Shown here piece by piece: positions 8,414 to 9,498 of a DNA stretch of 64,000 bases; position 1 is the stretch's first letter; each line of letters begins with the position of its first letter. The stretch lies in assembly GCF_009914755.1 (NCBI RefSeq), contig NC_060938.1. One strand, written 5' to 3'. A program made the position numbers and the translations under genes. Source of the stretch: the human T2T-CHM13v2.0 reference genome, Homo sapiens. The notes under the pieces were generated by a model. It was given only the letters and a program-made list of their open reading frames with translations. It made no database searches and had not been told where the DNA came from.

Positions 8414-9498
8414 TGCCCCAGTAAGTGTAGAGATATTATCTGTTCCTACTTGAGGTGCTGACCTGAGCACCACCCACAGCGGGTGAAGGGTGGAAGTGAG
8501 GGGCATTTCCAGAATAAGAGGGTGTTGGGACCCAGATGAGCTGGTGAACCATTTGCTAATGACAACACAGCAGGGCGTGCTGGGATGTGAACCTGAAAAC
8601 TGTCAAGGGGAGCCAAAGTCAAGGCCAGGAAGACAGTGCTAAGTGCAAGGGGCAAGGAGAGGATGGGAACCCAGGGCGCAACCCGGGAGGGCCTATGCCA
8701 GGAGGCTCAAGAGTAGAATGAGAGGGAGGGTGTGGGTGGACAGGGCAAGGTTCAGACCCAGGCTGTGAACAGCCCAAGCACCCTGGGCCACCTCACTTGC
8801 CTCCCTGGCCCTCCACACCTTGCAAGCACTTCTAATCCAGTGTCGAGAAAAGCTGACTGAAGAAACAGAGGCAAACAATAGCTGAAAATCTGTGGGCCTG
8901 TTGCTGTGGTGGGTCGGCGACGTCTGAGCAAGTGCAGTGAACCAAAGGGCGGGACCAAGAACCACGCCCCTGAGGGAGTTTGGCTGGAGGGGAGGGGTTT
9001 GGAATGGGCTCCGGGCTCTGCAGAGGAAGAGAACACATGTGGAGTCTCAGGTCCCCCTTGGCCTGGCCCTGCCCAGGCAAAGCACAAGGTACTCTTTAGG
9101 GACACAAGGGCACCGGCAGGGCTGGTTTGATGCCTGATGTGAGCCTAGGTGAGGGGGAGGGGAGGAGGAAGAGAAGGAGGAAGAGGGGGAGAACTCTGCT
9201 CCCCGCTGGCAGATCCCAGGGGGGCTCCATGAGGATGCCCCAGAGGGCAGCATGCTCTGTGGCCCTTTGGACCGACCGGCAGCTGGGGAGCGCTGTGGGA
9301 CAGCTCCCTGAGTGACATTTCCCCATGGGTGCCTGTGAGAATGGCTTCCCAGGGAGCAGGCCTCCGCAGACCTCATCTGGGTCCCAACACCCTCTTATTC
9401 TGGAAATGCCCCTCACTTCCACCCTTCACCCGCTGTGGGTGGTGCTCAGGTCAGCACCTCAAGTAGGAACAGATAATATTCCTACACTTACTGGGGCA
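8414..9498. repeat. 127-bp inverted repeat (8414-8540 / 9372-9498), 831-bp spacer
   Basis: 125/127 identical by eye; the peptide [25 protein letters not shown] appears on both strands in the ORF track. Confidence 0.97.

What the first reader, a model, noticed from the sequence alone, without database searches (positions are those of the whole stretch)
8414..9498. 127-bp, 98% identical inverted repeat around an 831-bp spacer: candidate recurrent micro-inversion
Seen: the arms differ at only two adjacent bases, are not recognisable TE sequence, and have no TSD. The left arm starts 3 bp after an Alu TSD. Established: closely spaced, highly identical inverted repeats mediate recurrent polymorphic inversions and are homogenised by gene conversion. 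Inference: either a very recent duplication or an actively converting pair; the spacer (GC-rich, with a GGGCGG box at 8947) could flip between haplotypes. If transcribed it would form a 127-bp dsRNA stem.
Basis: partly seen in the sequence, partly recalled or inferred. Interest (0 to 1): 0.7.

Follow-up and report, generated by a model that had tools for sequence, protein, structure and literature searches.

The report
Young local inverted duplication, chromosome 14
A 127-base piece of human chromosome 14 has a near-identical backwards copy 831 bases away; it is likely the scar of a single DNA copying or repair slip in ape or human ancestry, an ordinary kind of event, and probably not a segment that flips between people.

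Summary
The repeat is real: arms 8414-8540 and 9372-9498, 125 of 127 identical, 108 bp unbroken, sharp edges, only two copies found in the genome. Its size, distance and divergence fit the known class of proximal repair/template-switch (inverted) duplications (Pace 2009; Sudmant 2015). One two-base difference needs no gene conversion if the pair is younger than roughly 10-15 Myr. Three further, older local inverted duplications in the same window (89-96% identical) have decayed, and in all three the right-hand copy is the derived one. A recurrent inversion is unlikely: 108 bp is below the usual homology threshold, the locus is absent from a 373-region T2T inversion table, a 612-candidate inverted-repeat catalogue and a 1,576-entry human-chimpanzee list, and only 6 of 319 reference-picked inverted pairs proved polymorphic in that catalogue. 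No haplotype or ape sequence could be examined directly, so age, donor copy and rare flipping remain open. Verdict: new member of a known kind, low interest.

The parts
8414..8540 (+). Left arm of the inverted repeat (likely the donor copy; inferred)
8541..9371 (.). 831-bp single-copy spacer, 60% GC, CpG o/e 0.22; overlaps RefSeq enhancers 8494-9100 and 9101-9709 (hub annotation, not tested)
9372..9498 (-). Right arm (likely the derived copy; inferred); lies wholly inside annotated enhancer 9101-9709
8431..8432 (+). The only arm difference: two adjacent bases (partner positions 9481-9480), most simply one mutational event
9501..9514 (+). Perfect 7-bp tandem duplication starting 3 bp outside the right arm; possible filler/slippage scar at a new junction
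   Evidence: 0.6% of window positions lie within 10 bp of such a repeat
8085..8410 (+). Alu with poly(A) tail and 3' TSD copy (8397-8410; 5' copy 8071-8084), ending 3 bp before the left arm
7436..7725 (-). Second Alu, inverted relative to the first, 360 bp away (86-89% identical): a closely spaced inverted Alu pair beside the left arm
8947..8952 (+). GGGCGG hexamer in the spacer; not unusual

Best explanation
The two 127-bp arms are a near-identical inverted pair found only at this locus, likely made once when a stalled or broken DNA end briefly copied a nearby stretch from the opposite strand and then rejoined its own track, probably within the last ~15 million years, and likely fixed in orientation since. 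Shown: the pair, its uniqueness in the search, sharp edges, no TSD or poly(A). Inferred: origin by template switching or synthesis-dependent repair; age; that the right arm (9372-9498) is the inserted copy (about 50%; left arm inserted about 25%; a switch that also reversed the spacer at birth about 25%). No function is needed to explain it.
For: Size and spacing match the class: proximal repair duplications have median 147 bp, maximum 619 bp, 824 of 1,136 lie within 5 kb with a peak near 1.2 kb, and none of 39 inspected had a poly(A) tail (PMC2671141); 54% of 229 sequenced 1000 Genomes inversion sites were inverted duplications, nearly all <1 kb inserted within 5 kb (PMC4617611); 277 such events, median 284 bp, mostly with 1-15 bp microhomology, in 1,019 long-read genomes (PMC12350158). 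Divergence (2/127 = 1.6%, one event = 0.8%) is like that of human-specific (0.89%) and chimpanzee-specific (1.34%) duplications. With one event and an assumed 1e-9 substitutions per site per year, the 95% interval is 0.1-22 Myr; the chance of <=1 event is 0.47 at 7 Myr, 0.09 at 16 Myr, 0.013 at 25 Myr. No residual homology beyond either end of the arms: 3 of 3 flank comparisons scored within shuffles (p 0.26, 0.41, 0.88). Three more local inverted duplications in the same 64 kb have decayed to 89-96%; in each, dispersed relatives extend past the left copy but stop at the right copy's edges or the right copy interrupts an Alu. A perfect 7-bp tandem repeat 3 bp outside the right arm (background 0.6% per position, about 2.5% over four junctions, post hoc).
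Against: No outgroup or second haplotype was seen, so the empty site, microhomology and deletion that define the class are not shown. The left arm starts 3 bp from an Alu TSD at the base of an inverted Alu pair (about 1.5% per junction, 6% over four), which points to the left outer edge as the new junction and weakens the donor assignment. None of the 12 junctions of the three older pairs has a tandem repeat like 9501-9514. A MIR profile gave no ancient-repeat anchor across any junction. At a slower rate (0.5e-9) the age interval reaches 44 Myr. Pace et al. do not tabulate orientation, and this locus is not in their table.
Confidence: 0.8

Rival explanations
1. The arms recombine with each other (NAHR) and flip the 831-bp spacer repeatedly, so both orientations segregate in humans.
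For: Highly identical, close arms; 21 of 24 NAHR inversions show mixed haplotypes consistent with recurrence (PMC6748972); inversions with repeats as short as 140 bp are validated (PMC13629690); NAHR over <50 bp matches has been seen between repeats 5 kb apart (PMC2583991). A 13-position PRDM9-like motif (recalled) matches each arm with one mismatch, but so do 109 places in the window.
Against: Unbroken match is 108 bp; cutting 232 to 134 bp lowered recombination 20-fold and the meiotic estimate is 300-500 bp. Absent from all 18 chr14 rows of the 373-region T2T table for 41 samples, which does hold 866- and 874-bp calls; absent from the 612-candidate table and the 1,576 human-chimpanzee calls, the last two relying on recalled coordinate offsets. 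Only 6 of 319 inverted pairs picked from the reference alone were polymorphic in 54 people.
Confidence: 0.05
2. An older inverted duplication whose arms are kept alike by gene conversion, without crossover.
For: 108 bp of perfect identity; the one difference lies near the outer end. In the second pair (50741-51496) the longest exact run (49 bp) is near the inner end.
Against: Not needed: P(<=1 event) is 0.28-0.64 at 10 Myr without conversion. No frayed older homology outside the arms. Neighbouring inverted duplications with spacers of 0.2-3.2 kb have decayed to 89-96%.
Confidence: 0.08
3. The duplication is so young that it is a presence/absence polymorphism: some people lack one arm (not exclusive of the best explanation).
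For: Near identity; 1 of 10 human-specific repair duplications tested was polymorphic; inverted duplications are the commonest non-MEI inversion class in population long reads.
Against: 9 of 10 tested were fixed; the arms already differ; no matching entry in the tables reachable, though the most relevant tables were cut or not held.
Confidence: 0.1
4. The arms are terminal inverted repeats of a DNA transposon or MITE, with the spacer as its body.
For: Overall shape: inverted ends around a ~1.1-kb unit.
Against: No TSD; arm and spacer have no dispersed relatives; 98% arm identity would imply recent activity, while human DNA transposons have been extinct for >35 Myr (recalled).
Confidence: 0.01
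5. Assembly or cell-line artefact of CHM13.
For: Only one assembly was examined.
Against: A fold-back read artefact would give identical arms and no 831-bp unique spacer; RefSeq functional elements are mapped across the spacer and right arm (hub annotation).
Confidence: 0.01

Closest known systems
Proximal repair-mediated duplications (Pace, Sen, Batzer, Feschotte 2009, PMC2671141)
   Same: Two copies only, 127 bp (class median 147), 831 bp apart (class <5 kb, peak ~1.2 kb), no poly(A)/TSD, divergence like human- or chimpanzee-specific cases.
   Different: Their set was found only where the copy interrupts an annotated transposon; no such host was detected here. Empty site not seen. Not in their Table S1.
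Inverted duplications ('inv-dup') of the 1000 Genomes SV map (PMC4617611) and long-read cohort (PMC12350158)
   Same: <1 kb copy in reverse orientation within 5 kb of its source; not retrotransposed.
   Different: Those are polymorphic non-reference alleles; this one is in the reference and may be fixed.
Short-range template switches, four-point model (Walker et al. 2021, PMC7954356)
   Same: Reverse-oriented copying that leaves an inverted repeat; types 1-4-3-2 and 3-2-1-4 give single inverted repeats.
   Different: That work covers templates tens to hundreds of bases away; here the reach is about 1 kb.
Recurrent NAHR inversions between inverted repeats (InvFEST; PMC6748972, PMC13629690)
   Same: Highly identical inverted arms flanking a unique segment.
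   Different: Arms (127 bp, 108 unbroken) are shorter than the shortest catalogued (140 bp); no second orientation reported in the tables checked.

Membership tests
Proximal repair / template-switch inverted duplication | Sequence present at exactly two places in the genome | tested here: met
   2 of 2 candidates are the arms; the search is word-based and not exhaustive
Proximal repair / template-switch inverted duplication | Copies within 5 kb, 50-620 bp long, not tandem | tested here: met
   127 bp, 831 bp apart against class limits
Proximal repair / template-switch inverted duplication | No poly(A) tail or TSD of retrotransposition | tested here: met
   junction contexts
Proximal repair / template-switch inverted duplication | Empty site in an outgroup, with microhomology, filler or small deletion at the junctions | not testable with these tools
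   no ape or second human assembly is held (no relatives); 7-bp tandem repeat at 9501-9514 is only suggestive
Proximal repair / template-switch inverted duplication | Derived copy identifiable because it interrupts an older repeat | tested here: inconclusive
   no MIR-profile hit; no dispersed relatives of spacer or right flank
Recurrent NAHR inversion | Highly identical inverted repeats at both breakpoints | tested here: met
   125/127
Recurrent NAHR inversion | Uninterrupted homology at or above the minimal efficient segment (about 134-232 bp mitotic, 300-500 bp meiotic; exceptions known) | tested here: not met
   108 bp against values in PMC2583991
Recurrent NAHR inversion | Both orientations seen among haplotypes | tested here: inconclusive
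   not listed in three tables; no haplotypes examined directly
Recurrent NAHR inversion | Multiple origins (both orientations on shared haplotypes, no tag SNP) | not testable with these tools
   needs population data
Conversion-maintained inverted repeat | Arm-to-arm identity exceeds ortholog identity across species | not testable with these tools
   no orthologs
Conversion-maintained inverted repeat | Homogenised core inside older, decayed homology | tested here: not met
   3 of 3 flank comparisons at shuffle level
DNA transposon / MITE | TSD and dispersed copies | tested here: not met

The most novel reading that the evidence does not exclude
A hominid- or human-specific inverted duplication put 127-bp arms around an annotated enhancer pair and lets the 831-bp core flip at low frequency: the shortest-armed recurrent inversion in humans, missed by catalogues that start at 140 bp, in a 64-kb region that has repeatedly made inverted duplications with one polarity.
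Probability: 0.05. Interest if true: 0.5.

Novelty: new member of a known kind. Interest (0 to 1): 0.17.

Why it matters
As most likely read, it matters little: one of at least hundreds of local repair or template-switch duplications in the human genome. It is a clean, easily dated example, and it changed or copied part of an annotated enhancer between CPSF2 and SLC24A4. If both orientations were found in people it would lower the known arm length for recurrent inversion and imply an uncatalogued class of sub-kilobase flips. The four inverted duplications in one window, three with the same donor-to-copy direction, give a testable hint that local fork direction biases such events.

Tried and rejected
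(1) MIR across the left inner junction, suggested by eye: a profile from 30 genomic MIR-like copies (seed motif recalled) gave 20 hits in the window, none in 8000-10300, and no hit in a targeted scan of 8411-10300; rejected. (2) Older homology outside the arms, also with the Alu sliced out: none. (3) Structured RNA: 11 Rfam matches at E<=1 in 7000-11000, none within 8414-9498; 10 fall in the Alus. The bacterial promoter/terminator scan is irrelevant to a human locus and showed nothing above shuffles. (4) PRDM9-like motif (recalled): no exact match in 8414-9498; one-mismatch matches are common (109 in window). (5) Paper searches for the locus by gene and by coordinates in four formats found 0 papers; whether the coordinate phrases match punctuation as written was not controlled. 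A search for fork-direction polarity of inverted duplications found 0 papers with 4 of 5 terms. (6) Supplements: the Schloissnig 2025 spreadsheet was cut before its inversion tables, and only 1 file of Sudmant 2015 was held, so these two negatives carry almost no weight. Porubsky 2022, Vicente-Salvador 2017 and a recalled 2004 paper on short paired duplications were not held. (7) A 1-Mb background sample was planned; only 200 kb of tiles plus 90 kb of earlier loci were obtained, so the genome-wide frequency is only loosely bounded. (8) Earlier scan findings were not available.

Full report
OBSERVATION. The repeat is as described. Arms lie at 8414-8540 (+) and 9372-9498 (-), 127 bp, with an 831-bp spacer. 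They agree at 125 of 127 positions; the two differences are adjacent (8431-8432), leaving 108 bp unbroken on the inner side. Of 583 self-alignments in the window it is the only one with >=60 bp and >=92% identity, and the next longest exact inverted match is 49 bp. A whole-genome search gave two candidates, the arms themselves, at chr14:86,436,414-540 and 86,437,372-498; spacer and right flank have no relatives elsewhere. The same search recovers old repeat families at 69-88% identity, a fair positive control, though it is not exhaustive. The left arm starts 3 bp after the 3' copy of an Alu TSD (8397-8410; 5' copy 8071-8084, 12 of 14 alike). That Alu is one of an inverted pair 360 bp apart; four other such close inverted Alu pairs occur among the 24 near-full-length Alus of the window. 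The GGGCGG at 8947 is one of 8 in the window, and the spacer is CpG-poor (o/e 0.22).

AGE AND CONVERSION. Counting the doublet as one event and assuming 1e-9 substitutions per site per year (my assumption), the 95% age interval is 0.1-22 Myr; the chance of at most one event is 0.47 at 7 Myr, 0.09 at 16 Myr and 0.013 at 25 Myr; at half that rate the interval reaches 44 Myr. So no conversion is needed for an event of human or great-ape age. Published divergences for dated local duplications are 0.89% (human-specific) and 1.34% (chimpanzee-specific) (PMC2671141, text parts 1-3 read). Identity falls to background at both ends: none of three flank comparisons, one with the Alu sliced out, beat shuffles (p 0.26, 0.41, 0.88). 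A converted core inside an older duplication would be expected to show frayed edges (inference).

WHAT CLASS IT FITS. Pace et al. found 824 of 1,136 two-copy insertions within 5 kb of their donor, median 147 bp, maximum 619 bp, distance peak near 1.2 kb, none of 39 inspected with a poly(A) tail, and assigned them to synthesis-dependent repair. They could see only copies that interrupt an annotated transposon, so 824 is a floor; this locus is not in their table (hg18 offset recalled), and they do not tabulate orientation. In the 1000 Genomes map, 54% of 229 sequenced inversion sites were inverted duplications, nearly all <1 kb within 5 kb of the source (PMC4617611, passages). In 1,019 long-read genomes they are the commonest non-MEI class (277; median 284 bp) with 1-15 bp microhomology (PMC12350158, passages). 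The four-point template-switch model yields single inverted repeats (PMC7954356, passages). The finding has the anatomy of this class in each respect that one genome can show.

INTERNAL CONTROLS. A scan for local pairs (>=50 bp, >=88%, <=5 kb apart) in the window and 50 other loci (290,750 bases: 20 systematic 10-kb tiles and 30 MIR-centred 3-kb loci) gave 13 rows; I dropped 5 with many dispersed matches (Alu-like). Left are four inverted pairs in the window and, in the controls, one inverted pair (L014), two direct pairs and one tandem pair; no control pair is inverted, >=100 bp and >=95% alike. The three other window pairs are 50741-51006/51204-51496 (198 of 212 aligned bases alike in its main part), 45203-45296/48480-48572 (89%) and 58261-58313/59281-59333 (96%). 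Each is copied from an old dispersed repeat yet is closer to its neighbour than to distant copies of similar length, so each is a local duplication. In all three the right-hand copy is derived: in the first it sits between the body and poly(A) tail of an Alu and includes that Alu's own 5' junction; in the other two, dispersed relatives run past the left copy but stop within a few bases of the right copy's edges. They show that this window makes such duplications from time to time and that they then decay. The apparent excess is weak: 3 against 1 (leaving out the finding) gives p 0.04, and p 0.14 with direct pairs, on an exposure I estimated by hand and post hoc. Three of three with one polarity is p 0.25 two-sided.

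WHICH ARM IS NEW. Not settled. For the right arm: a perfect 7-bp tandem repeat at 9501-9514, 3 bp outside its outer edge (0.6% of positions lie within 10 bp of such a repeat; about 2.5% over four junctions), and the polarity of the three older pairs. Against: none of their 12 junctions shows such a repeat, and the left arm's outer edge lies 3 bp from an Alu TSD at the base of an inverted Alu pair, a known fork-stalling structure (recalled), with about 6% chance over four junctions. A MIR that seemed by eye to span the left inner junction was not confirmed by a profile of 30 genomic copies. A switch that copied the spacer backwards on the way would leave the same final picture with the spacer reversed once, at birth.

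DOES IT FLIP. The premise is right for long repeats: 21 of 24 NAHR inversions show mixed haplotypes (PMC6748972, passages). But efficient NAHR usually needs more unbroken homology: a cut from 232 to 134 bp lowered recombination 20-fold and the meiotic estimate is 300-500 bp, though exchanges over <50 bp occur between repeats 5 kb apart (PMC2583991, passages). Here there are 108 bp. I saw all 18 chr14 rows of the 373-region T2T table for 41 samples: none lies between 80.1 and 99.8 Mb, although calls of 866 and 874 bp are present (PMC10150506, passages and supplementary table). The 612-candidate catalogue (repeats from 140 bp up) has no chr14 coordinate beginning 9220 or 9221 in hg38, with a format control passed (PMC13629690, text parts 1-3 and table searches); in it only 6 of 319 inverted pairs chosen from the reference alone were polymorphic in 54 people. 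The 1,576 human-chimpanzee calls (23 bp upward, draft chimpanzee) have none at the expected hg17 place (PMC1270012, passages and table search). The hg38 and hg17 places rest on recalled offsets. The Schloissnig inversion tables, the Sudmant tables, Porubsky 2022 and Vicente-Salvador 2017 could not be seen and may bear on this. Searches of main texts by gene and coordinates found nothing. These negatives lower but do not exclude a rare flip; small inversions are under-called.

FUNCTION. No gene is annotated in the window; two RefSeq enhancers cover the spacer and right arm (hub annotation, untested). The CPSF2 3' end is about 34 kb upstream and SLC24A4 about 116 kb downstream. Enhancers work largely independently of orientation (established), so even a flip would be expected to do little. 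No Rfam family matches 8414-9498. The single strand can fold back through the arms, as any inverted repeat can; the neighbouring Alu pair scores as well.

VERDICT. A real, young, local inverted duplication; likely one template-switch or repair event (0.8). Recurrent inversion 0.05, conversion-maintained older pair 0.08, presence/absence polymorphism 0.1 (not exclusive). New member of a known kind; interest 0.17.

Noticed in passing
window 50741-51006 and 51204-51496: Older local inverted duplication (93% in its main part) copied from an old dispersed repeat (L1-like, label recalled) plus the 5' start of an Alu; the copy sits between that Alu's body and its poly(A) tail and carries a short reiterated AT-rich insert.
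   Followed up: yes
window 45203-45296 and 48480-48572: 94-bp local inverted duplication, 89% alike, 3.2 kb apart; donor on the left inside an old dispersed repeat, derived copy on the right.
   Followed up: partly
window 58261-58313 and 59281-59333: 53-bp local inverted duplication, 96% alike, 967 bp apart; donor on the left, derived copy on the right, followed by an AT-rich stretch.
   Followed up: partly
window 8414-59333: Four local inverted duplications and no direct ones in 64 kb; the three that can be polarised all run donor-left to copy-right. Weak statistics (p 0.04-0.25), possibly a fork-direction effect.
   Followed up: partly
window 7436-7725 and 8085-8396: Closely spaced inverted Alu pair (360 bp apart, 86-89% alike) next to the left arm.
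   Followed up: partly
window 21252-23978: Run of five Alus in alternating orientation, gaps 125-672 bp.
   Followed up: no
window 8424-8455 and 9457-9488: Each version of the two-base difference completes a different tiny hairpin (5-bp stem in the left arm, 7-bp stem in the right), so the doublet may itself be a quasi-palindrome template slip; read from the sequence, not tested.
   Followed up: no
L014:206-745 and 2156-2700 (G000:C1:20345716-20348210): 540-bp local inverted duplication, 90% alike, 1.4 kb apart, part Alu-like and part unique; another member of the same class.
   Followed up: partly
window 7385-7411: Short hexamer tandem repeat (CATCAG units) just left of the first Alu.
   Followed up: no
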